DNA of 64,000 nucleotides, taken from assembly GCA_937124615.1 (NCBI GenBank), contig CAKZKR010000113.1, forward strand, positions 1,292 through 65,291. The letters are read 5' to 3'. This DNA comes from an uncultured bacterium. GTDB lineage: Bacteria > Hydrogenedentota > Hydrogenedentia > Hydrogenedentales > Hydrogenedentaceae. Every line of letters starts with the position of its first letter. Positions within the stretch are counted from its first letter, which is position 1. Positions 24,400 through 34,992 of this stretch are shown piece after piece. Under the pieces are notes generated by a model that was given only the letters and a program-made list of their open reading frames with translations, did not search any database and was not told the DNA's origin. A program made the position numbers and the translations under genes.

Positions 24400-25041
24400 A
24401 TGATATTGGGTAAAGTAAAAGAAAAAATATTCATATTAAGTTTGTTATTTGTCTTTTTTGTTTCTTTTTTTGTACCTACTTTTTGTTCTGCACAGGGAGA
24501 TAAAGATACTTCTGAAGGTTGTGGCCCCTATCACTCGCGATACCAGATTCAACCGCCTGCAAAAAAAATATCAAGACCACCTGCACGAACACCTCTTCAT
24601 AATCCTCCTGCAACCTCTATTAAAGCACCTTCTGCAAGAAAATCGTTAGCCGCTCCTCCTGCTGAATCGAAGTCTGCACCTCCTGTTAAAAAACCTGTGG
24701 TAAACCCACCGGCTGTTCCTATTAAACAGCCCCCGAAAAAGATAGCGGTCTCAAACCCACCAGCGACCCCTATTTCTGCTCCATCGAAAAAGAAACCTTT
24801 TTCCGCCCCCCCGGCCCAGGCGAAATCCGCCCCCCCTGCAAAACAGCCCGTGATAAACCCGCCGGCAACCCCTATTTCTGCTCCGTTAAAAAAGAATCCT
24901 CTTTCTGCTCCCCCGGCTCAGGCGAAGTCCGCTCCCCCTCCAAAAACTTCAGCAGGTAAAGAGGATGTTTCAAGAAGCCATCCGTATTGTGTCGGTGTAA
25001 GAGAACCCGGTTCAAAGGACGCAATTCGTTTTATTCATTAA
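24400..25041 (+). CDS. Secreted Pro/Ala/Lys-rich repeat protein
   Basis: Signal peptide; eight 17-aa xPPA...xP..K units flanked by single cysteines. Confidence 0.75.
   Translation: MILGKVKEKIFILSLLFVFFVSFFVPTFCSAQGDKDTSEGCGPYHSRYQIQPPAKKISRPPARTPLHNPPATSIKAPSARKSLAAPPAESKSAPPVKKPVVNPPAVPIKQPPKKIAVSNPPATPISAPSKKKPFSAPPAQAKSAPPAKQPVINPPATPISAPLKKNPLSAPPAQAKSAPPPKTSAGKEDVSRSHPYCVGVREPGSKDAIRFIH
24550..24957 (+). repeat. Eight in-frame 51-bp tandem units
   Basis: Units begin QPPA, NPPA, APPA, NPPA, NPPA, APPA, NPPA, APPA at 51-bp spacing. Confidence 0.85.
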
Positions 25042-25051
25042 GCAAATATCT

Positions 25052-25879
25052 TTATTTTTTAGAGGGAATCATGGGTTCACTAAAAAAAGTAGTTTCATTC
25101 AGAAATTCGAGAGCAAGCCACAAAATAAGCAGAGTTGTGTGAACATTAAGGCCATCCTCAGGAACACTTGTTCCGGAGAAAGACCCATCATCCCGTTGAA
25201 AAGAAAACAAGTGGGATATCTCATTTATGTTAATAAGATTTTTCCTGCCAAGGTAGCATATAAACGCCAGGGCTTCAACTTTTAAATCAGAGGGGAATAA
25301 TAAAGGCGTAGCGATAGAGTATAAGTGACGGGTTATGTCATTAATTGCTTGTTGAACATCCTTATCATCAGGAGATAAGCATTTTTGTTCAATAAACCAT
25401 CCTAATGCTAAAGCGGAATGTGTAGAGGCATATCCCCCTTCCTCTGATTGCCTTTTTAACTGCATGATTAATGTGTTTTTATCAGGGCATTCCTCTTGTT
25501 TTTCAATAAAAAGGGCTTGTAACTCAAGCCAGATAAAACTTTCCGCTTGTTTCGGTTTTTTCCACTTGATGCCTTTGTAATTTACCAATCTACCATAGAT
25601 TTCTAATGATTTTATATCTTGTGAATCGGGATAACGAGTAAATGTTTTTTTAAATGAAAATTCTTCTGACAGAGAAAAACGGCGTTGCAAGTAGTCCAAT
25701 AAAATTAAGTCTTCCACCCTGAAACGAAATTTGTTTTTTTGAATATATTCTATTATTTTATCTCGTGTCTTTTTTAAATCCATCTTTATAGTGGGACTTT
25801 TTTGGGAGTGAATTGGTGGGTTTAATAATAATGCAGTGAGAAACAGTAAGGGAATAATTAAATTAAAAAGTGTTTTCAT
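25052..25879 (-). CDS. Exported hypothetical protein, helical, with a prenyltransferase/squalene-cyclase-like Q..DGSF repeat
   Basis: Signal peptide; GGYASTHSALALGW; FQRDDGSF...HTT; ATGA overlap with the permease gene. Confidence 0.55.
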   Translation of the reverse strand: MKTLFNLIIPLLFLTALLLNPPIHSQKSPTIKMDLKKTRDKIIEYIQKNKFRFRVEDLILLDYLQRRFSLSEEFSFKKTFTRYPDSQDIKSLEIYGRLVNYKGIKWKKPKQAESFIWLELQALFIEKQEECPDKNTLIMQLKRQSEEGGYASTHSALALGWFIEQKCLSPDDKDVQQAINDITRHLYSIATPLLFPSDLKVEALAFICYLGRKNLININEISHLFSFQRDDGSFSGTSVPEDGLNVHTTLLILWLALEFLNETTFFSEPMIPSKK

Positions 25880-26874
25880 GGCCCCTGCTGTTCTTTTATT
25901 TTCCCTTGTAACTTATCCATTAGTACCGCTGATAAAATAACAAATCCCAATGTTACCTGTTGTCCAAAAGTTTCAATACCAATCCAGTTAAGCCCACTGT
26001 TTAATGTGAATACCACACATAATCCTAACAATGTCCCCCATAACGAACCTTTTCCTCCGCTCAGACTTGTTCCACCGATTACGACACTGGCAATGACAGC
26101 CAATTCATCACCAACACCGACCTTAGGACTTCCGGAACCCATGCGAGAGGCAAGTATTACCCCTGCTAAGGCTGAAAAGGTACTACATAATATATAAACA
26201 AGTAACTTTGTTTTTTTTACAGGGACCCCGCTAAGTCGAGCAGACTCTTCATTGCCACCGATGGCGAGGGTGTGTCTTCCTATGGAAGTGTAATTTAGAA
26301 TGATTAGCCCTGTGAAAAATATCAATCCGAAGATGATGATACTAACAGGTATAAACTGAACCCAGAGTCCTCTTCCTAAAAACAAAAATTCTTCAGGCAC
26401 AGGACTGATAGGTTTGCCATTGGTTATAATATTGGCCAGCCCCCTCAATAAACTCATGAAAGCCAGAGTTACTATAAATGGAGGGATGTCCCATAAAGTT
26501 ATGATACTTCCCATTATTATCCCAATAACCATTCCCAGCAGAATCCCTATAAGAAAGGAGAGAGGCACAAAGGACCCCGATATAGAAGCAAAGTGGACAG
26601 CCATCATTGCAGAAATGACCCCGGACATCGCTCCGATAGAACCGATAGATAAATCAATCCCACCCGACATAATCACAAATGTCATTCCCACAGCCATAAT
26701 CCCAAAGATGGATAGTTGATTTAGGATAAGGATAATTGTAGAAAAGGAAGCGAAACCGGGTTGTCCCTGTTTTCTACCTATTATTTCAAAAATAGCAAAT
26801 TCAATGATAAGTGTAATGGTTAGTGGAACCCATGACCGATAAAAAAGTTTTTGAATGCTCTCTTTAAGCCACAT
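25876..26874 (-). CDS. rbsC: Ribose-type sugar ABC transporter permease
   Basis: GMTFVIMSGGIDLSIG, IPPFIVTLA, AIGGNEESARLSGV, ELAVIASVVIGGTSLSGGKG. Substrate not certain. Confidence 0.85.
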   Translation of the reverse strand: MWLKESIQKLFYRSWVPLTITLIIEFAIFEIIGRKQGQPGFASFSTIILILNQLSIFGIMAVGMTFVIMSGGIDLSIGSIGAMSGVISAMMAVHFASISGSFVPLSFLIGILLGMVIGIIMGSIITLWDIPPFIVTLAFMSLLRGLANIITNGKPISPVPEEFLFLGRGLWVQFIPVSIIIFGLIFFTGLIILNYTSIGRHTLAIGGNEESARLSGVPVKKTKLLVYILCSTFSALAGVILASRMGSGSPKVGVGDELAVIASVVIGGTSLSGGKGSLWGTLLGLCVVFTLNSGLNWIGIETFGQQVTLGFVILSAVLMDKLQGKIKEQQGP

Positions 26875-28372
26875 TCTGTTTTTTATATCCTGTGGCAAAC
26901 TGCATAATTTTTTCCTGTGTGGCCTCATTACGGGATAATTCGCCGGAGAGGTGTCCTTCGTGCATGACAAGAATACGGTCGCACATGCCCAGGACCTCGG
27001 GCAACTCGCTGGAAATCATGAGAATGGCGACCCCCTCTTCAAGAAGTCGGTTCATAAGTTTAAATATTTCTGATTTGGCGCCAACATCAATACCTCGGGT
27101 AGGTTCATCAAAAATGAGAACTCGCGATTGTGTGAAAAGCCATTTAGCCAACACTACTTTTTGCTGATTTCCTCCGCTTAAATTCTGGGCGATTTGTTCT
27201 ATGGATGGTGTGCGGATTTGCAGGTCACGCACATAATTTTCTGCTACCTGTCGTTCCTTAGCAAGGTTAAGAAAGAATCCATTTGTAATCTCCTTTAGGT
27301 TTGCCAATGTCGTGTTTTCACGGATGGTCATACCTAAAACCAATCCCTGATTTTTACGGTCTTCTGTAAGAAGACCGATACCATTTTTAATGGCTTCCTG
27401 TGGAGAATGAATTTTAACTTCCTGGCCATCTACAAAAATCTTCCCTGTATCAATGGGGTCTGCTCCAAATATAGCCCGGGCCACTTCGGTTCTTCCTGCT
27501 CCGACCAAGCCTGTTAGTCCTACAATTTCTCCTGCATGTACTGAAAAATTAATGTCATAAAAAGCCCCTTTACGGGTTAATCCTTTTACTCTTAAACGCT
27601 CTTTTCCTCGGGGTAGGGACACTTTAGGATATTCCTCGGTAAGTTCTCGGCCTACCATCATCTTAATCAAATCCTCACGAGTTACATCGCAGACCTCGTA
27701 TGTTCCAATATACTGACCATCCCGCATAACAGTAACACGATTTCCAATTTCATAAAGTTCTTCAAGTCGGTGGGAAATATAAATAATTCCGATGTTTTGT
27801 CTTCTCAAAACCCTGATAAGTTCAAATAGAGTCTTCAATTCATGGTCTGTCAAAGTTGCAGAGGGTTCATCCATAACAATAATTTTTGCCTGAATACTTA
27901 GGGCTTTTGCAATTTCCACCATCTGCTGTTGTGCAATACTTAACTCTGCAACAGGAATACGCACATCCAGTTTTAATCCGACCCGTTCCAACACTTCTTG
28001 TGCTTCTGCGTACATCTTTTTCCAATTAATAAAAGGGGTTCCCGGAATGCGCGGTTCACGACCCAGAAAAATATTTTCTGCAACGCTCAAGTAAGGAATA
28101 AGGTTAAACTCCTGATATATCATGCTGATACCCAGTTGTTGAGCATGATACGGAGAAATAATTTGTATAGGTTGTCCTTCCAGAAAAATCTGTCCAGAAT
28201 CCATGGAAACAGCACCGGCCAGAATTTTCATAAGAGTTGACTTTCCTGCACCGTTTTCGCCTATGAGGCAATGAACTTCTCCATAACGCACTTCCAATTT
28301 TACTTTGTCTAGAGCCAGAACCCCCGGAAATCGCTTTGTTATATCTCTCATTTCAAGCAATACATCACTCAT
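26864..28372 (-). CDS. rbsA: Ribose-type sugar ABC transporter ATP-binding protein
   Basis: GENGAGKSTL, MDEPSATL, LSGGNQQKV, DEPTRGIDVGAK; two fused ATPase domains. Confidence 0.92.
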   Translation of the reverse strand: MSDVLLEMRDITKRFPGVLALDKVKLEVRYGEVHCLIGENGAGKSTLMKILAGAVSMDSGQIFLEGQPIQIISPYHAQQLGISMIYQEFNLIPYLSVAENIFLGREPRIPGTPFINWKKMYAEAQEVLERVGLKLDVRIPVAELSIAQQQMVEIAKALSIQAKIIVMDEPSATLTDHELKTLFELIRVLRRQNIGIIYISHRLEELYEIGNRVTVMRDGQYIGTYEVCDVTREDLIKMMVGRELTEEYPKVSLPRGKERLRVKGLTRKGAFYDINFSVHAGEIVGLTGLVGAGRTEVARAIFGADPIDTGKIFVDGQEVKIHSPQEAIKNGIGLLTEDRKNQGLVLGMTIRENTTLANLKEITNGFFLNLAKERQVAENYVRDLQIRTPSIEQIAQNLSGGNQQKVVLAKWLFTQSRVLIFDEPTRGIDVGAKSEIFKLMNRLLEEGVAILMISSELPEVLGMCDRILVMHEGHLSGELSRNEATQEKIMQFATGYKKQNVA

Positions 28373-29343
28373 TTATTCAATCCTTCTGATAATAATATTT
28401 CGCGAGTAATTAATTTTACGGGTATATATTTTATAGGAGGAATCGGTTTCCCCTGAAAATATTCGTCGATGGTTTCGCTTGCAGATTTTCCAATTTCTTT
28501 TGGAAATTGTGCGATATCTGCTATCAAGGCTTTTCCCTCACGGATTGCTATGCATGCTTCAGGTGTAGCATCAAAACCGACTATTTTGATTTTGTCCTGT
28601 AAGCCAGCGGATTCTACCGCTGCAAGAGCCCCTAAAGCAGAGTCATCGTTAATACCGAATATTGCATCCAGGTCTGTTCGCGAAGCAATCAAGTCCTGAG
28701 CAGAACGCATAGCTTTATCTCGTTGTCCTTCGCCCGGTACTTTTTGAACAATAGTAATCCCCGGATATTTTATCAATGCATCCTCAAAGCCTTTTACCCG
28801 TTCCTGAACCGATGTTACAGTGGGATGGTCAATAATAGCGACTTTTCCTTGTCCTTTCAACTGTTCTGCAAGATACTCTCCCAATAAAACACCGCCCTGG
28901 TGATTATCCGAGGCAATGTGACAGATAACATGGGTGTCCTTAACAGCAATGTCCACAGTAAATACAGGGATTTTTTTCTCCATGGCCTGTTTTATAATTG
29001 GAGCCATGCCACTGGAATCGGTAGGGGCTACGACCAACGCCTGAACCCCTTGTAGGATAAACATTTCTATCTGGTCGTTTTGCTTACGCGGGTCAAATTC
29101 TGCATACTGGATTTTCATCAGGATATTTTTTTGTTCGGCTGTTTCTCTCATTGCTCCAGCCAGATCCTGATAGAACACATGTGTCTGTGTTAGCAACGAA
29201 GCGCCCACAATAGGATGCTTTGTTGTTTTTGGGTCTGTTGTTCCTTTACCGCCCGAACAGGAAAAGGCTAAAAAAATAATTATAAAGACGAACGAATATA
29301 TATAAAGATATAGGGGTTTAAAAATACACATTCTTATGAACAT
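28369..29343 (-). CDS. rbsB: Sugar ABC transporter substrate-binding lipoprotein (RbsB-like)
   Basis: Lipobox-like LAFSC; HIASDNHQGG, ERVKGF, NDDSALGA, VGFDA. Confidence 0.85.
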   Translation of the reverse strand: MFIRMCIFKPLYLYIYSFVFIIIFLAFSCSGGKGTTDPKTTKHPIVGASLLTQTHVFYQDLAGAMRETAEQKNILMKIQYAEFDPRKQNDQIEMFILQGVQALVVAPTDSSGMAPIIKQAMEKKIPVFTVDIAVKDTHVICHIASDNHQGGVLLGEYLAEQLKGQGKVAIIDHPTVTSVQERVKGFEDALIKYPGITIVQKVPGEGQRDKAMRSAQDLIASRTDLDAIFGINDDSALGALAAVESAGLQDKIKIVGFDATPEACIAIREGKALIADIAQFPKEIGKSASETIDEYFQGKPIPPIKYIPVKLITREILLSEGLNK

Positions 29344-29413: not shown

Positions 29414-31141
29414 TTACTTGTCATATCCGAGAATATACCACAAATTATAAGGTAAAGGTTGAGATAACATTTCCTGTTTTATAGGGAGATTATCGATAAC
29501 AGAAGATTCCATTCCTTCCCAATTTACAGATATGTTATCAAACCAAGCCCCACTATAAGAACCTTCTTCATTTCCACACCAGACGCCTAACATGATTAAT
29601 ATCGTATCACACAATAGGGAATGATAGGGTGTGTTTGGATTTACAATCTGAAATATTTCAGGAATATTGAGGGTGAGATGATGAAAACGATAACCGTAAT
29701 CCGGTAGTCTCATAGCGGTAGCCATACCCTCTTGTTTTAATTTTTCAAAGTATTGCTGTTTTTGTGTTATTTCATCATGGTATGCCCACATTTTTGGAAT
29801 GTGTTTTACCCGTTCTTCACGGGCTCCCCAATGCCCAATCCACATCCAGCATAATTTCTTTCCTTTCAATAAAGCTATCCGCAAAAAACCTCCACCATAA
29901 AAACTCTTTTCGTTATTTGGAACATAATACCGTACTTTAATTACAGGTTTTGCGTTATGATCCGGGATTCGTATGACCTGATAGGTGTCTATACTCTCAT
30001 CATATTGCCATGCATGACCTTTGTATCGAACAAACAAATGTAGAGATTGTTCGCCTGTCAATGGATCACATTTTTTTGTTTCCCGGACAAATCCGGGTTC
30101 GTGTTCAGACAAATACCGTATCGGGAAGAACCAATCCGTGAGTCCTTGTTCAAAATCACCATTTTTAATTTCCGTATAGGGGGTTATTTCGCTCCAGGGC
30201 CGGAATGAACGAGGGTCCATATCGCGAGTGAAAATGGAAAACTGTTCCGGATATTCGTGTTTTGATTTTGTTCCTAATTGACGACCAAACAATTTTATGC
30301 TTGAACCGTTTATAATGGCCTCCAAAAAATATCCGCGGTCGTTGGATGTGTCAAATTCGGGGTATTCCTCGCCAAATGCTCTGCCGGGAACTAAGGTAGG
30401 TAGGACAACGAACCGTGTCCCTTGATATTCCCATGCTGTGCGAACGGATGCCTTGACGCCGTTGTGAACATGTCCCATAAAAACATATTGTACATTCCCA
30501 TATCGAACGATGGTGTCCAATAGTTTATTTTTCCGTTCCTTTGGATAGGTATAATATTCTAATTGAGAGAGTCCTACGGGTAATAAATGATAATGCAAAA
30601 ACACTATTACAGGACGGCGCCATGCGGAATGAAGTTCATCATTTAACCAGAGGATTTGTTCTTCAAATTTGTTTTGACCCAATAATTCAGGAGCACATAA
30701 GACAATAAACCGCCAGGACCCGCAGTCAAATGCATAATTGGGCAAACGAAAACCACATAACCTTTCCTGCATGGACAGGAATAATCCATCATTATGTTTT
30801 CCATCATGATTTCCGTGGACGAGAGCCATAGGCATTGTCAAGGGTCGCACTGCGTTTTCAAACGCAGAAAAATATTCTGGACGGGGAAAAGCAACAAGGT
30901 CTCCATTAAATACAACCAAATCTACCTGTTCCTGATTTGCTAAATTTACCGTATCTCGGAGTGTTTGTTCCAGTTCCTGTTCAAATTTTACCGAACTATC
31001 CGCAGGACCTATTTGTGGGTCTGCCACGAGGAATAATCGAACATTCTCGGTTTTATGGGTGAGCGAGGAATAATAATTTGTCGTAGGGCTATCGATTCTC
31101 TCAGGAGCACATAAGATAACACATAATAAAGTTAGTAACAT
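29414..31141 (-). CDS. Exported calcineurin-like metallophosphoesterase with extra C-terminal domain
   Basis: ADPQ, NGDL, GNHD, FLHY, GHVH motifs; the C-terminal part starts IKNGDFEQG (CBM4/9-like signature). Confidence 0.85.
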   Translation of the reverse strand: MLLTLLCVILCAPERIDSPTTNYYSSLTHKTENVRLFLVADPQIGPADSSVKFEQELEQTLRDTVNLANQEQVDLVVFNGDLVAFPRPEYFSAFENAVRPLTMPMALVHGNHDGKHNDGLFLSMQERLCGFRLPNYAFDCGSWRFIVLCAPELLGQNKFEEQILWLNDELHSAWRRPVIVFLHYHLLPVGLSQLEYYTYPKERKNKLLDTIVRYGNVQYVFMGHVHNGVKASVRTAWEYQGTRFVVLPTLVPGRAFGEEYPEFDTSNDRGYFLEAIINGSSIKLFGRQLGTKSKHEYPEQFSIFTRDMDPRSFRPWSEITPYTEIKNGDFEQGLTDWFFPIRYLSEHEPGFVRETKKCDPLTGEQSLHLFVRYKGHAWQYDESIDTYQVIRIPDHNAKPVIKVRYYVPNNEKSFYGGGFLRIALLKGKKLCWMWIGHWGAREERVKHIPKMWAYHDEITQKQQYFEKLKQEGMATAMRLPDYGYRFHHLTLNIPEIFQIVNPNTPYHSLLCDTILIMLGVWCGNEEGSYSGAWFDNISVNWEGMESSVIDNLPIKQEMLSQPLPYNLWYILGYDK

Positions 31142-31895: not shown

Positions 31896-34733
31896 CTACG
31901 GGCTGGTTGTGCTTTTTTCTTCCATATTTTGTGGAGGGATAATATGAATATTTGTAGTCAGTGGGAAAGGAACACCTATTAGACTTGGGAAAACAATTTC
32001 TGCAAAAACTGCAGTATATTGTTGAGGTTCAACGGGTATTGTTGTTCGATAAACCCCTTCTGCGGACTCTGAAAGTACTTTGTATCTCCAGCCTTTATTT
32101 TCAGGATGGAAGAGAGTGCCTCTTTTGTCTTTACTGCAGTACCATATGCGACATTCTATTACTTCTTCACTCACCTTTATACGACAATCCCCTTTTGAAG
32201 AGAATTCCCATTGGAATACAGGCATATTTTTTTGTCCTAACAATCGTTGATAAAATACCTGTATTGTATCTTTGAAATCATATATGCGGAGATGGGTATT
32301 GCTTGAAGTAGTGAAATTGTAAAGGGTTTGTTGGGGTAAAAATGCAAATTCTCGAGATAATTGGAGTTGTGGACAAACAATCCAATTAACAGGTCCGGGT
32401 ATTTCAGAAATAACCTGTTCTGACAGGGAAACGATATCATGCCATTGTTCATTATTGAGTGCGACAATAAGTTTTGGGATTCTCAAAGCCTCACGGTAAT
32501 AATAAGGGTCAATTACTTTTAAAAGATTTTCCCCATCCTCTGTTTCTAATAGAGGAAGAAGTCCTGCATCATCCATTTCTGCAAAAAGTCCCGGGAATTC
32601 AATCTCATCCATAAACATTCGCTTTATCTGCTGTTCCAGATGGAAGCCCGTGGCGTTTATGGATACCAGTCCAATAATACGGCTATCTACAGGAGGAACT
32701 AACCATGACACAAAGAAAGGGGTGTCGGAACATAAAACAAATTCTTTTAGAGGGATTTCCGAACGCAGATTTTTTAATAATAATTCCTGTATAGCATCCA
32801 TTGTCCGTACTACTGTTTTGACCAAAGGACAGAAAACGATCCAACTTGTGTCGTGGGTCTCAAAATATTGTTTTAAACTCCAACTGGCAAATTCAGCTGG
32901 CTCTAAATGAACAACCTGGGTCGGCGTTCTATAAATCCCGGCCTTATCTCGTGGAAAACCTTCAAGAATAGAAACAACAGACTTGGAGGATACCGCAAGG
33001 GAAATGAAATAGGGGGGGATCTCACTCATAGGGGTTTCCGGTGTGGAAAATCCATTAGTAAGGACCAGCATCCCAATATCTTTTACCCTCTGTTTGGGAA
33101 TAATTACAGTTAGCCAGTGTCGCCATACCGGAGGAACGGTTTTCTCCGGATGCCAACTCTGCGAAGTCAAATCAAGTATATATGCTTTATAACCTTCCCC
33201 TTGTTTCTCTTCTAACACTTCGAATTTATAGTTATTATCATACTCTTTAACATAATTAGATAATACTTTTGAATAATCAATCGGTTCTATTTTTATATCC
33301 TGTTTGTTGACGCTGGAGATTGTTGTTTCTTTCCCTGGGAGTCGGACTTTGTAGTAATAAATATATGCGATATAACCACTCAAACATAAGGAAACAAGAG
33401 AAATCAGTAGAAGGAAAAAAATGAATAGATTCATTTTGAAATTTGACGGTTGCTGAGGTAACGATGTTATCTCATAAGGGAATGGAGTTGGCATGGGAGT
33501 ATAAGTTGTACCCATAACCGTAGGGGGTGTAGAAATGGGTGTTGGTTGGAGAGATACCCCTGCATTCGTATTTGGCTGTGTTTGCATTGGAACGGTCATT
33601 GGGGTAGGAGATACAGTCGCACTACTGGTATCATAAGGGATATTTGTCCCCGGAGAGATGGGCCCTGTTCCGGGTGGTGTCCTGAAATCCGCTGGCATAG
33701 TATTAGGAGGGGTTGTTCCAGTGGAGGGAGTTTGATATTGTAGTCGTTGACTGTCTGTAGGGGTAATTGGATACCCCGGTGTTACTTCTTTCGGTTGGGG
33801 TGTAAATTCGGTTGATATAATTTCCCCTGTTTCGGATAAAAGCATCGTTTTCTGTTCGGGTGGGACAGATATTTCGCCTGATTCTCTTTTTAATATATCA
33901 TTTCTGATTTCCCGAAGACGGTCTGCTACTTCTCTGGCAGAAGATGGCCTAGCTTCTGGATTTTTTAGAAGGCCTTGTGAAATGAGTTTTTCAAGTGCTA
34001 CAGGTAAATCGGGATTTATAAGACGAACAGGCGTTGGGGGGGTATCGGTGTGTTGCCTCATTAAGGCAAGGTAGTTTTCTGCTTCAAATGGTAAACTTCC
34101 TGTAAAAAGGAAATATAAAACTACACTTAATGAATAAATATCCGATTGGGGAGTCGCTTCTTTTCCCAGGCATTGTTCAGGCGACATATATGCCGGGGTC
34201 CCTAAAACATTATGCTCGCCTGTTAGTGGAGTTAGGGATGTATCCCTCAATCGAGCGAGATTAAAGTCCGTTAATTTTACAATACCATTATTATCTACAA
34301 GAATGTTTGCAGGTTTTATATCTCTATGGACAATCTCTGCTTGATGTGCTAAAAATAAAGCCTCTGCTATCTGTGTTCCAATATCTATGCGTTCTACAAG
34401 CGAGAGATTAGGATTCTCCCGTATAAATCGGTCTAAATTTTTCCCATGCACATATTCCATTACCAGGGCTAACCGTTGATTCTCTTCTACAATATCGTAA
34501 ATTTGTACTATTCCCGGATAGTTCAAACGAGCAGCACTTTGGGCTTCTCGTAGAAAACGAGAGACACGGGCTGGTTCTGATGAGTGTTGTGGGTGAAGTA
34601 CCTTAATGGCTACTTCTCGTTTCAGCCGCGGGTCAAAACCACGATAAACAACTCCAAAACCGCCTTCCGCAATCCGTTCATCGATGCGATAAACACCAAT
34701 ATTTGAAGGTATGTCGCCAGATATTCCAGACAC
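31896..34733 (-). CDS. Hanks-type Ser/Thr kinase, Pro/Thr-rich linker, TM helix, PqaA-like alpha/beta-hydrolase ectodomain
   Basis: AEGGFGVVY, VAIK, HRDIKPANIL, DFN, GTPAYMSPEQ; TM LFIFFLLLISLVSLCL; PqaA-like LDLTSQSW...WRHWLTVIIP...IDPYYYREALRIPKLI. Confidence 0.85.
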   Translation of the reverse strand: MSGISGDIPSNIGVYRIDERIAEGGFGVVYRGFDPRLKREVAIKVLHPQHSSEPARVSRFLREAQSAARLNYPGIVQIYDIVEENQRLALVMEYVHGKNLDRFIRENPNLSLVERIDIGTQIAEALFLAHQAEIVHRDIKPANILVDNNGIVKLTDFNLARLRDTSLTPLTGEHNVLGTPAYMSPEQCLGKEATPQSDIYSLSVVLYFLFTGSLPFEAENYLALMRQHTDTPPTPVRLINPDLPVALEKLISQGLLKNPEARPSSAREVADRLREIRNDILKRESGEISVPPEQKTMLLSETGEIISTEFTPQPKEVTPGYPITPTDSQRLQYQTPSTGTTPPNTMPADFRTPPGTGPISPGTNIPYDTSSATVSPTPMTVPMQTQPNTNAGVSLQPTPISTPPTVMGTTYTPMPTPFPYEITSLPQQPSNFKMNLFIFFLLLISLVSLCLSGYIAYIYYYKVRLPGKETTISSVNKQDIKIEPIDYSKVLSNYVKEYDNNYKFEVLEEKQGEGYKAYILDLTSQSWHPEKTVPPVWRHWLTVIIPKQRVKDIGMLVLTNGFSTPETPMSEIPPYFISLAVSSKSVVSILEGFPRDKAGIYRTPTQVVHLEPAEFASWSLKQYFETHDTSWIVFCPLVKTVVRTMDAIQELLLKNLRSEIPLKEFVLCSDTPFFVSWLVPPVDSRIIGLVSINATGFHLEQQIKRMFMDEIEFPGLFAEMDDAGLLPLLETEDGENLLKVIDPYYYREALRIPKLIVALNNEQWHDIVSLSEQVISEIPGPVNWIVCPQLQLSREFAFLPQQTLYNFTTSSNTHLRIYDFKDTIQVFYQRLLGQKNMPVFQWEFSSKGDCRIKVSEEVIECRIWYCSKDKRGTLFHPENKGWRYKVLSESAEGVYRTTIPVEPQQYTAVFAEIVFPSLIGVPFPLTTNIHIIPPQNMEEKSTTSP

Positions 34734-34992
34734 TTTTTATCCTAACCTAATCATTAACCACATTTTAATATATTTTAACTATACCGATAATAACTATCCT
34801 AATCCAAATACAATAGAGAAAAAATATCCCTTCCTTTTTTAAATACAATTCAAAAGAAAATAGTTCATTAATTAGTATATGCAAAAATTGAATTTCTTAT
34901 TATTATCATTAATTTCTATATTGTCATCATTAATTAATTGAAGGGTGTAGATGCATTTTTTTGTATATGATGATAAAAAGAATATGAGGGGC

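What the first reader, a model, noticed from the sequence alone, without database searches (positions are those of the whole stretch)
31896..34733. Receptor-type Ser/Thr kinase with a catalytically degenerate PqaA-family hydrolase ectodomain and DFN in place of DFG
Seen: kinase, then about 130 aa of Pro/Thr linker, one TM helix and a roughly 480-aa domain with PqaA-like motifs (LTSQSW, WRHWLTVIIP, IDPYYYREAL.IPK). Where PqaA has its nucleophile elbow (G-A-S-K-R-G-W, from memory), this protein reads CSDTPFFVSW, and the downstream Asp/His positions also look lost. The kinase keeps VAIK and HRDIKPAN but has DFN (GAC TTT AAT) and AEGGFG. Known: Hanks kinases usually use PASTA, TPR, WD40 or FGE sensor domains. 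Inference: an inactive alpha/beta hydrolase reused as a ligand-binding receptor, analogous to hydrolase-derived receptors such as plant GID1. This could be an undescribed signalling architecture.
Basis: partly seen in the sequence, partly recalled or inferred. Interest (0 to 1): 0.72.

Follow-up and report, generated by a model that had tools for sequence, protein, structure and literature searches.

The report
Receptor kinase with dead hydrolase sensor
A membrane-spanning signalling kinase of an uncultured Hydrogenedens bacterium carries, on the outer side of the membrane, a hydrolase-like domain that has lost its catalytic residues yet is strongly conserved, so it most likely works as a sensor; this design is shared by a small group of relatives and seems not to have been described.

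Summary
Window 31896..34733 (-) encodes a 945-aa protein: Hanks kinase (aa 15-267), Pro/Thr-rich linker, one TM helix (435-461), then a PF10142 (PqaA/AprA, MEROPS S82) domain plus beta-sandwich. The ectodomain model (pLDDT 90) is an alpha/beta-hydrolase fold (Z 21 to CE7 esterases). In 22 distinct fused proteins the family's invariant Ser-Lys-Arg elbow and His are absent (0 of 22), whereas 41 of 41 canonical members keep them. The acid, a G-G glycine and the VPNQP loop are also lost. New invariant residues appear, and dN of the dead domain is about as low as the kinase's. The fused ectodomains form one clade (SH-aLRT 100). They occur in 11 of 135 genomes of the phylum, 8 of 10 in the genus, and make about 24 clusters among 5.8 billion proteins. 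The kinase keeps all catalytic residues, but DFG is always DFN or DFS (0 of 22 DFG; 66 of 67 control kinases DFG). Best reading: a receptor Ser/Thr kinase whose sensor is a pseudo-hydrolase. The ligand, substrates and kinase activity are untested, and no operon partner is conserved. No paper on this architecture was found, though automatic annotation already names both domains. It is a new variant of a known kind, of moderate interest.

The parts
31896..34733 (-). Whole gene: 945-aa receptor-type Ser/Thr kinase with a PF10142 pseudo-hydrolase ectodomain (stop codon at 31896-31898)
33933..34691 (-). Hanks-type protein kinase domain, aa 15-267 (G-loop 21-30, Lys44, HRD 136-138, Asn143)
   Evidence: Pfam PF00069 E 1e-50. 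The catalytic residues are invariant in 17 of 17 aligned fused proteins.
34260..34268 (-). DFN (GAC TTT AAT) in place of DFG, aa 156-158
   Evidence: The clade has DFN or DFS in 22 of 22 distinct proteins. Control kinases: 66 DFG and 1 DLG of 67.
34176..34241 (-). Activation segment TSLTPLTGEHNVLGTPAYMSPE, aa 165-186, with invariant Thr168 and Thr171 as candidate autophosphorylation sites
   Evidence: invariant columns; the role is inferred
33435..33878 (-). Cytoplasmic Pro/Thr-rich juxtamembrane linker, aa 286-433 (P 19%, T 19%); fast-evolving
   Evidence: dN 0.35 against 0.045 for the kinase
33351..33431 (-). Single transmembrane helix, aa 435-461
   Evidence: the only strong Kyte-Doolittle peak. 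Distant orthologues have Arg/Lys clusters on the N-terminal side of it.
32232..33284 (-). Alpha/beta-hydrolase-fold core with helical cap, aa 484-834 (PF10142 match aa 491-869 = 32127..33263)
   Evidence: Z 21.1, rmsd 3.6 A over 276 residues to 6agq_A
32703..32732 (-). Degenerate nucleophile elbow CSDTPFFVSW, aa 668-677. Canonical G-x-S-K-R-G-W; here Ser is Thr671, Lys is Pro672 and Arg is deleted.
32946..32963 (-). Clade-specific loop EGFPRD, aa 591-596, replacing the canonical V-P-N-Q-P-L loop after strand beta4
32445..32450 (-). Former catalytic-acid position, Glu762-Gln763 (canonical G-D-x-F-F); not conserved in the clade
32358..32360 (-). Former catalytic-His position, Leu792 (canonical P-N-x-x-H)
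31938..32216 (-). C-terminal beta-sandwich, aa 840-932, also present in canonical family members
   Evidence: model secondary structure; aligned with canonical proteins in A2
34899..34927 (-). Promoter-like site (ATGACA-17-AATAAT, 10 of 12) in the 260-nt gap upstream; weak evidence only
   Evidence: 9 sites found against 11.7 expected, so not above chance

Best explanation
The gene encodes a single-pass receptor-type Hanks Ser/Thr kinase. The kinase and a long Pro/Thr-rich linker sit in the cytoplasm. The C-terminal 484 residues sit outside the membrane and form a PF10142 (PqaA/AprA, MEROPS S82) alpha/beta-hydrolase domain plus beta-sandwich. That domain descends from an exported, catalytically active enzyme like P0029. 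It has lost the Ser-Asp-His triad and other active-site residues but has kept its fold and cap, so it is a pseudo-enzyme. Inferred mechanism: the dead domain binds a molecule related to what the active family members process (a peptide or an ester/glycan), or a product of the organism's own five secreted PF10142 enzymes. Occupancy changes the association or orientation of receptor molecules. The kinase then autophosphorylates on activation-loop Thr168/Thr171 and on the Thr-rich linker, and signals to cytoplasmic targets such as the genome's FHA-domain proteins. PP2C phosphatases would reset the signal. The clade-wide DFN/DFS change probably stiffens the DFG segment in an active-like position, so control would lie mainly in receptor association. 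Shown: architecture, fold, loss of the triad, conservation, single origin. Inferred: topology, ligand binding, kinase activity, downstream steps.
For: Architecture. Fold: AlphaFold model pLDDT 90.3, pTM 0.90; Foldseek E 3e-11 to CE7 esterases; VIA Z 21.1, rmsd 3.6 A over 276 residues, with S9 peptidase domains at Z about 17. Triad mapping: the family profile aligns its Ser, Asp and His with the G-x-S-x-G Ser, an Asp and a His of solved hydrolases 7qjn and 5xks (weak E 0.003-0.01; that these are their triad residues is general knowledge). Loss: 41 of 41 canonical proteins keep S-K-R and His, while 0 of 11 and 0 of 22 distinct fused proteins do, and P0259 likewise lacks them. Residues 100% conserved in canonical members (Glu612, Ser671, Lys672, Arg, His792) are all lost. 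Still functional: dN against L086 is 0.069 for the dead domain, 0.045 for the kinase and 0.349 for the linker. The clade also has new invariant residues: His528, Pro534/535, Glu591, Gly592, Asp596, Arg862. Single origin: 17 of 17 fused ectodomains lie on one side of a branch, SH-aLRT 100. Conservation of the fusion: 20 of 20 hits carry both Pfam domains; 11 of 135 genomes of the phylum and 8 of 10 of the genus have it. Kinase competence: Lys44, Glu63, HRD, Asn143, Asp156 and the SPE motif are invariant in 17 of 17. A natural DFS kinase, TbDYRK, is active, and its S-to-G change lowers activity (PMC7136023, passages read). Exported ancestry: canonical paralogues and P0029 begin with signal-peptide-like or lipoprotein-like N-termini (judged by eye). 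Partners exist: 4 FHA ORFs and 2 PP2C ORFs in the genome.
Against: No binding, ligand or kinase activity has been tested. I could not inspect model coordinates, so it is not shown that a pocket persists or that the new invariant residues line it. No conserved neighbouring gene points to a pathway. The substrate of canonical PF10142 enzymes is essentially unknown: the family is called 'barely characterized' (PMC11878206), with only a DPPIV-like activity reported for AprA (PMC8326840). So the ligand class is a guess. The distribution is patchy: 3 of 125 genomes outside the genus, and not found in 2 of 10 genus genomes with this query. In this protein the TM flanks carry more positive charge on the C-terminal side (printout), so topology rests on the lack of a signal peptide, on distant orthologues and on the exported nature of the family. 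dS is saturated, so the omega values are only rough.
Confidence: 0.68

Rival explanations
1. The dead hydrolase domain is not a small-ligand sensor. It is a protein-binding, anchoring or oligomerisation module. For example, it could dock onto one of the active secreted PF10142 paralogues or onto an envelope component, and so place or constitutively dimerise the kinase.
For: Pseudo-enzymes often act as scaffolds (general knowledge). The genome holds five active paralogues, two of them in giant surface proteins. The DFN/DFS change may make the kinase constitutively active-like (PMC7136023, by analogy), which fits a role in localisation rather than in switching.
Against: Nothing specific supports a partner. 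No paralogue or other gene is a conserved neighbour. The invariant remodelled EGFP-x-D loop lies at the C-terminal end of strand beta4, which in this fold is the active-site face (inferred from topology). That suggests a rebuilt site rather than a new surface.
Confidence: 0.2
2. The ectodomain is still an enzyme that uses non-classical residues, for example Thr671 or Asp670 as nucleophile, or a new site built from His528, Glu591 and Asp596.
For: The clade has gained invariant polar residues His528, Glu591 and Asp596. Position 670 is Asp or Glu in most members. P0020 keeps a G-S-S-T-G elbow and an Asp.
Against: No residue at the nucleophile column is conserved (A, I, S or T). Position 670 is Ala or Ser in P0019, P0020, P0023 and P0259. 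The general-base His is absent in 0 of 22 and nothing conserved replaces it at that column. The Gly560 of the G-G motif is also lost; its oxyanion-hole role is my inference.
Confidence: 0.05
3. The kinase is a pseudokinase because of DFN and the A-E-G-G-F-G loop, and the protein signals, if at all, as a scaffold.
For: The DFG glycine is replaced in the whole clade, which is rare: 0 of 67 control kinases have DFN or DFS.
Against: Every residue needed for phosphotransfer is invariant: Lys44, Glu63, Asp138, Asn143, Asp156. The metal-binding Asp of DFG is kept. Kinase dN is very low. Natural DFS (TbDYRK, PMC7136023) and DFD (MNK, search listing only) kinases are active.
Confidence: 0.05
4. The divergent ectodomain is simply decaying, a fusion on its way to loss, and has no function.
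For: Low Pfam score (148 bits against 310-430 for the paralogues) and patchy distribution.
Against: The frame is intact in all full-length orthologues seen. Identity is 88% in the alpha/beta core against 57% in the linker for the same pair, and dN is 0.069. There are 60-odd invariant ectodomain columns across proteins as low as 33-38% identical.
Confidence: 0.02

Closest known systems
PASTA receptor kinases (M. tuberculosis PknB, B. subtilis PrkC, S. aureus Stk1)
   Same: Cytoplasmic Hanks kinase, juxtamembrane linker, one TM helix and an extracytoplasmic sensor whose fold comes from enzyme-associated modules. Activation is by ligand-dependent association (review PMC6213207, passages read). 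The kinase part aligns best to this model (NF033483, 306 bits).
   Different: There is no PASTA repeat. The score is below the 450-bit cut-off and covers only the kinase. The sensor here is a roughly 480-aa globular pseudo-hydrolase. The kinase has DFN/DFS instead of DFG.
M. tuberculosis PknD (beta-propeller sensor) and other receptor Hanks kinases with non-PASTA ectodomains
   Same: The same receptor layout with a large globular ectodomain of unknown ligand (PMC6213207).
   Different: The ectodomain fold is different. Here the evolutionary source of the sensor, an active exported hydrolase family with paralogues in the same genome, can be identified.
Canonical PF10142 / MEROPS S82 proteins (Salmonella PqaA, Dictyostelium AprA, relative P0029)
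   Same: Homologous domain: shared S-Q-x-W, W-x-H-W, P-x-x-K-S-x-V-R-A-M-D and I-D-P-Y motifs, helical cap and C-terminal beta-sandwich. Both are extracytoplasmic.
   Different: Canonical members keep G-x-S-K-R-G, G-D-x-F-F and P-N-x-x-H and are stand-alone or joined to PKD, Big, dockerin or PASTA modules. AprA has a reported DPPIV-like activity (PMC8326840). The fused clade has lost these residues and is joined to a kinase through a TM helix.
Hydrolase-derived receptors in eukaryotes: plant GID1, and cholinesterase-like neuroligins (recalled, not tested here)
   Same: An alpha/beta-hydrolase fold with an incomplete triad reused for binding. Neuroligins are also single-pass membrane proteins with the dead hydrolase outside.
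   Different: They belong to other alpha/beta-hydrolase families and have no kinase in the same chain. The resemblance is one of principle, not of descent.
BlaR1/MecR1 beta-lactam sensors (recalled)
   Same: A bacterial membrane receptor whose outer sensor is derived from a hydrolytic enzyme (beta-lactamase/PBP-like) that binds but does not turn over its ligand.
   Different: A different fold. The sensor keeps its acylating Ser. The output is a zinc protease, not a kinase.

Membership tests
Hanks-type (eukaryotic-like) Ser/Thr protein kinase, PF00069 | Profile match above the curated cut-off | tested here: met
   173.1 bits against 31.7, aa 15-267
Hanks-type (eukaryotic-like) Ser/Thr protein kinase, PF00069 | Catalytic residues: beta3 Lys, alphaC Glu, HRD Asp, catalytic-loop Asn, DFG Asp | tested here: met
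   Lys44, Glu63, Asp138, Asn143 and Asp156 are present and invariant in 17 of 17
Hanks-type (eukaryotic-like) Ser/Thr protein kinase, PF00069 | Canonical D-F-G glycine | tested here: not met
   DFN here. The clade has 15 DFN and 7 DFS among 22 distinct proteins. This is a variant, not a disqualifying feature.
Hanks-type (eukaryotic-like) Ser/Thr protein kinase, PF00069 | Phosphotransfer activity | not testable with these tools
   needs an autophosphorylation assay
PF10142 PhoPQ_related / MEROPS S82 | Profile match above the curated cut-off | tested here: met
   148.1 bits against 20.3, profile positions 1-361 of 367. This is much lower than the genome's five paralogues at 311-429 bits.
PF10142 PhoPQ_related / MEROPS S82 | Alpha/beta-hydrolase fold | tested here: met
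   Z 21.1 to CE7 esterases, model pLDDT 90.3
PF10142 PhoPQ_related / MEROPS S82 | Catalytic Ser in G-x-S-K-R-G, acid in G-D-x-F-F, His in P-N-x-x-H | tested here: not met
   Thr671/Pro672 with a deletion, Gln763, Leu792. It is therefore a homologue of the family but not a peptidase or esterase of it (a 'non-peptidase homologue').
PASTA kinase Stk1/PknB family (NF033483) | Score above the cut-off and PASTA repeats in the ectodomain | tested here: not met
   306 bits against 450, match confined to aa 15-303; no PF03793 hit
Chlamydial PknD (NF009651) | Full-length equivalog match | tested here: not met
   119 bits against 839, kinase part only
CE7 acetyl-xylan esterase / cephalosporin-C deacetylase | Sequence-family membership and an active Ser-Asp-His triad | tested here: not met
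   Best structural neighbour only (10-15% identity). The triad is absent.

The most novel reading that the evidence does not exclude
This is the founding example of a bacterial receptor Ser/Thr kinase whose sensor is a dead S82-family alpha/beta-hydrolase. The pseudo-enzyme would still recognise the substrate or product of the phylum's greatly expanded secreted PF10142 hydrolases. The kinase, held active-like by its DFN/DFS motif, would report the availability of that extracellular polymer and tune the degradative machinery. That would be a substrate-sensing loop built by duplicating and inactivating the enzyme itself.
Probability: 0.3. Interest if true: 0.65.

Novelty: new variant of a known kind. 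Interest (0 to 1): 0.5.

Why it matters
Very few ligands or sensor mechanisms are known for bacterial Hanks-type receptor kinases outside the PASTA group. Here the evolutionary source of the sensor is clear: an exported hydrolase family with active paralogues in the same genome. That gives a concrete way to look for the ligand, namely by finding what the active paralogues cleave. It would also add a bacterial kinase-linked case to the short list of alpha/beta-hydrolase pseudo-enzymes reused as receptors. It also offers a natural clade in which the DFG glycine is always Asn or Ser, which is useful for studying how DFG rigidity affects kinase control. The family is narrow (one uncultured phylum, about 24 sequence clusters), and the idea of enzyme-derived sensors is established, so the advance would be incremental rather than conceptual.

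Tried and rejected
(1) A phmmer search of PDB sequences with the ectodomain alone gave only chance hits (Borealin, E 0.3). The family profile was needed. (2) search for related loci on genome contigs chose kinase peptides as seeds, so 76 of 77 loci were generic kinases and only L008 was an orthologue. I reused those loci as a DFG control and used the genome search for the orthologues. (3) Homodimer prediction of the ectodomain returned 'no answer' (score 0.00), which counts neither way. There is therefore no expression evidence. (5) Model coordinates are not exposed to scripts, so I could not inspect triad geometry, pocket volume or the clustering of the new invariant residues. (6) Gene neighbourhood: DJ-1/PfpI lies convergent downstream in 3 of the 7 loci looked at (window, L117, L118), and mnmA lies upstream in 2 (window, L117). 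The other four loci have unrelated neighbours (ARMT1-like/MetH, GLUG protein, inositol monophosphatase with a sigma-54 response regulator, URO-D-like). No FHA or PP2C gene is adjacent, so a functional operon was rejected. (7) The 'Nitrospiraceae' label of P0017 is not a wider distribution: the protein is 100% identical to that of genome G093, which lies in the window's phylum. (8) P0259 first looked like a kinase fused to an intact hydrolase (302 bits to P0029), but its sequence shows the same dead motifs. (9) The last profile search searched only proteins of 913-2605 aa, so it missed shorter members and added just P0268. (10) The earlier-findings look-up by sequence found nothing.
Full report
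1. What is there

Window 31896..34733 (minus strand) is one open frame of 945 codons starting at GTG. Orthologues begin at the same point with M-S-S-I-S-G-D-I-P. Pfam finds two domains above their curated cut-offs. Pkinase covers aa 15-267 (E 1e-50, 173 bits). PF10142 'PhoPQ_related' covers aa 491-869 (E 3.7e-43, 148 bits, profile positions 1-361 of 367).

Between the two domains lies a Pro/Thr-rich stretch, aa 286-433 (19% Pro, 19% Thr). It is followed by the only strongly hydrophobic segment of the protein, aa 435-461. The DNA reads GAC TTT AAT for DFN.

2. Organism and paralogues

Source names of the closest proteins and of locus L008 say Candidatus Hydrogenedens sp..

The genome (3.37 Mb, 116 contigs, 96.6% complete) holds six PF10142 copies above about 140 bits. 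Five are canonical, at 311-429 bits: three short exported proteins and two inside frames of 1639 and 1598 aa, one of them with PKD repeats. The kinase-fused copy is by far the most divergent, at 146 bits.

PF10142-like matches are widespread in the phylum. 125 of 135 genomes have at least one match at E <= 1e-20, often several per genome.

3. The ectodomain is an alpha/beta-hydrolase fold

An AlphaFold2 model of aa 472-945, built on a 52-row alignment of 11 fused and 41 canonical proteins (A2), has mean pLDDT 90.3 and pTM 0.90. Foldseek's best solved matches are CE7 acetyl-xylan esterases and cephalosporin-C deacetylases (E 3e-11, TM 0.55-0.64 on the target). VIA-align gives Z 21.1, rmsd 3.6 A over 276 residues to 6agq_A. 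The whole CE7 group scores Z 20-21, and S9 peptidase catalytic domains score about Z 17.

Model residues 13-363 form the hydrolase core, with a helical insertion (cap) between strands at 215-221 and 283-289. Residues 369-461 form a beta-sandwich that canonical members also have.

A review of alpha/beta-hydrolases lists PF10142 as MEROPS family S82, cap-bearing and 'barely characterized' (PMC11878206, passages read). The only biochemical activity I found reported is a DPPIV-like protease activity of Dictyostelium AprA (PMC8326840, a passage citing Herlihy 2013 and 2017, which I did not read).

4. The triad is gone in the whole fused clade

A profile of A2 aligns the family's Ser (G-x-S-K-R-G), Asp (G-D-x-F-F) and His (P-N-x-x-H) with the G-x-S-x-G Ser, an Asp and a His of the solved hydrolases 7qjn and 5xks. 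The E-values are weak (0.0026 and 0.0096), but all three residues line up. That these are the catalytic triad of those enzymes rests on general knowledge of the fold.

In A2, 41 of 41 canonical proteins have S-K-R and 41 of 41 have the His. 37 of 41 have the Asp, and the other 4 have Cys. None of the 11 fused ectodomains has S-K-R or the His.

I extended this to all fused proteins then in hand, which are 22 distinct sequences because P0001 equals P0002. Of these, 0 of 22 have S-K-R and 0 of 22 have the His. P0259, found later, is the same.

All fused proteins share a one-residue deletion in the elbow. The elbow reads C-(S/A/G)-(D/E)-(T/A/I/V)-P-(F/Y/L)-F in the subclade that holds the window's protein, and T-G-x-(A/S)-(N/D/T)-G-(W/I) elsewhere.

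P0020 is the least degenerate. It has G-S-S-T-G and an Asp, but no His.

A column-by-column comparison of 17 fused proteins against 46 canonical ones shows what else the clade has lost:
- canonical Glu612 (100% conserved)
- Gly560 of a G-G motif after strand beta3, which I infer to be an oxyanion-hole element
- the V-P-N-Q-P loop after strand beta4
- Gly711, Asp769 and Asn789
- a D-F-R motif in the sandwich

In this protein the canonical positions read Asn560, Pro612, Thr671, Pro672, Arg deleted, Gln763 and Leu792.

5. The dead domain is not decaying

Against the orthologue in L086, amino-acid identity is:
- 92% in the kinase
- 88% in the alpha/beta core
- 80% in the sandwich
- 57% in the linker

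The dN values are 0.045, 0.069, 0.115 and 0.349 respectively. dS is saturated at about 1.1-2.4, so the omega values of about 0.03-0.15 are only rough.

The clade has acquired its own invariant residues, absent or variable in canonical members. They are His528, Pro534-Pro535, Glu591-Gly592 and Asp596 (an E-G-(F/Y/H)-P-x-(D/N) loop in place of V-P-N-Q-P-L), Gly599, Val638, Gly734-Glu735, Arg862 and Pro916-Ser917.

The remodelled loop follows strand beta4. By the topology of this fold it therefore lies on the former active-site face. This is an inference, because I could not read the coordinates.

6. One origin, narrow distribution

In an IQ-TREE tree of 63 ectodomains (quick search, LG+G4), the 17 fused ones lie on one side of a branch with SH-aLRT 100. 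A long internal branch (0.83) leads to the nine-protein subclade that contains the window's protein and all the proteins labelled Hydrogenedens sp.. The root is at the midpoint only, so no order of events is claimed.

P0029 is a 476-aa protein with an intact triad, a signal-peptide-like N-terminus and a hydrophobic C-terminal tail (the last two judged by eye). It shares the clade's W-H-P deletion and many other motifs, and it is 38% identical to P0259. It is the nearest catalytic relative found, although the tree leaves its position unresolved.

Counts from the searches:
- Word-indexed search over 5.8 billion clusters at 90% identity: 20 hits, and 20 of 20 carry both Pfam domains.
- Exhaustive phmmer over 1.84 billion representatives at 50% identity: 1551 hits at E <= 1e-3. 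Scores fall sharply from 960 and 310 bits to the general family.
- Of 35 long hits scanned with Pfam, only P0022 and P0023 carry a kinase. The other 33 are canonical domains (290-760 bits) joined to PKD, Big_13, dockerin, SprB, FG-GAP or PASTA modules.
- Two further searches added P0259 (1 kinase fusion among the 120 rows listed) and P0268.
- Total: 24 clusters plus one fragment (P0027).

Among 135 genomes of the phylum, the fused form (E <= 1e-68, frames of 895-965 aa, one cut by a contig end) is in 11. That is 8 of 10 genomes of the genus, and it was not found with this query in G054 (91% complete) or G057 (85% complete). The other three genomes belong to two other families. The one protein labelled 'Nitrospiraceae' is identical to that of G093, which lies in this phylum.

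7. The kinase

Lys44, Glu63, His136-Arg137-Asp138, Lys140, Asn143, Asp156 and the G-T-P-A-Y-M-S-P-E segment are invariant in 17 of 17 aligned fused proteins. So are Thr168 and Thr171 in the activation segment.

The DFG glycine is never present. Among 22 distinct proteins, 15 have DFN and 7 have DFS. In this genome, the four other kinase ORFs where my pattern found a catalytic loop have DFG, and two further kinase-like ORFs were not read by the pattern.

As a wider control I used generic bacterial kinases that are 36-44% identical to this one. Of those read, 66 of 67 have DFG and 1 has DLG. 9 of the 76 loci could not be read.

A natural DFS kinase, TbDYRK, needs its Ser for full activity. Changing it to Gly lowers activity, and the motif is predicted to make the segment rigid and 'in' (PMC7136023, passages read). 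MNK kinases with DFD are a further precedent, from search listings and recall only. I therefore read DFN/DFS as a derived, clade-defining variant of an active kinase and not as a defect.

8. Context and pathway

The gene appears to stand alone. There is a 260-nt gap upstream with one promoter-like site, which is not above chance. A DJ-1/PfpI gene lies convergent downstream.

mnmA upstream together with DJ-1 downstream recurs in one genus relative (L117). DJ-1 alone recurs in another (L118). All other orthologous loci have unrelated neighbours.

The genome has 4 FHA-domain ORFs and 2 PP2C ORFs, none adjacent. So the usual reader and eraser parts exist, but no specific target can be named.

9. 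Mechanism proposed

The protein is a single-pass receptor kinase with the N-terminus inside and the C-terminus outside. The kinase has no signal peptide. Distant orthologues have Arg/Lys clusters just before the TM helix. Canonical family members are exported.

The outer pseudo-hydrolase would bind a ligand related to the family's substrate, either a peptide or an ester/glycan. This changes receptor association. The kinase then phosphorylates itself in trans on Thr168/Thr171 and on the Thr-rich linker, which may then recruit FHA proteins. PP2C enzymes would reverse this.

Architecture, fold, loss of the triad, purifying selection and single origin are shown. Topology, binding, activity and targets are inferred.

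10. Comparison and novelty

The layout is that of PknB/PrkC-type receptor kinases (PMC6213207), but membership in the PASTA family fails (306 bits against a cut-off of 450, and no PASTA repeat).

The ectodomain is a homologue of PF10142 but fails that family's catalytic definition. In principle it resembles the hydrolase-derived receptors GID1 and neuroligin, and the bacterial enzyme-derived sensor BlaR1. These comparisons are recalled and were not tested here.

Three full-text searches found no paper on a kinase-PF10142 protein: PqaA/PhoPQ-activated, PF10142/S82/AprA, and Hanks-type plus hydrolase plus sensor/pseudoenzyme. Subscription journals and bioRxiv supplements were not searchable. Automatic annotation (JGI, NCBI) already names both domains.

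I class it as a new variant of a known kind, with interest 0.5.

Noticed in passing
G000 contigs C81:21498-22700 and C38:6853-7968 (loci L004, L005): Two canonical PF10142 domains sit inside giant frames of 1639 and 1598 aa. L005 also has five PKD repeats. Both have several hundred C-terminal residues with no Pfam match at E <= 1e-4. By eye these residues contain a G-x-P-Y-Q-M-G motif.
   Followed up: partly
Proteins P0026, P0174, P0176-P0178, P0229, P0244, P0252: PASTA repeats (PF03793) occur together with PF10142 and PKD domains in large extracellular proteins that have no kinase or PBP domain. This is an unusual setting for PASTA.
   Followed up: no
Proteins P0180, P0181, P0184, P0188, P0196, P0205, P0226, P0260: Canonical PF10142 domains are fused to alpha-L-fucosidase with F5/8-type-C, GDSL esterase, glycerophosphodiesterase, C45 acyltransferase-like or ceramidase domains. 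This hints that the family acts on glycan or lipid esters as well as, or rather than, peptides.
   Followed up: no
P0029 (476 aa): This is the nearest catalytically intact relative of the fused clade. It has a signal-peptide-like N-terminus and a hydrophobic C-terminal tail, so it may be a membrane-tethered active enzyme and a plausible ancestor type of the receptor's ectodomain.
   Followed up: partly
G000 ORFs C3_+_1_7789 (294 aa) and C85_+_0_4711 (314 aa): Two kinase-like ORFs (E 7e-41 and 2e-35 to the kinase domain) in which my pattern found no H-R-D-x-K-x-x-N catalytic loop. They may be divergent kinases or pseudokinases.
   Followed up: no
window 29417-31141 (-): A 575-aa protein whose only Pfam match is a calcineurin-like metallophosphoesterase domain at aa 59-227. 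The C-terminal roughly 350 residues have no family match.
   Followed up: no
window 24400-25038 (+) and 25055-25879 (-): Two ORFs of 213 and 275 aa with no Pfam match at E <= 1e-6. They lie next to a sugar-type ABC transporter operon (permease, ATPase and periplasmic binding protein, 25879-29343).
   Followed up: no
L115:12061-14216 (genome G078): In one distant orthologue, the kinase gene is followed by an unannotated 227-aa ORF and a divergently transcribed sigma-54-dependent response regulator. This is seen in that locus only.
   Followed up: no
P0023 (1199 aa): A fused-clade member about 250 aa longer than the rest. Its PF10142 match is split into two or three stretches, which implies a large insertion within the ectodomain.
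   Followed up: no
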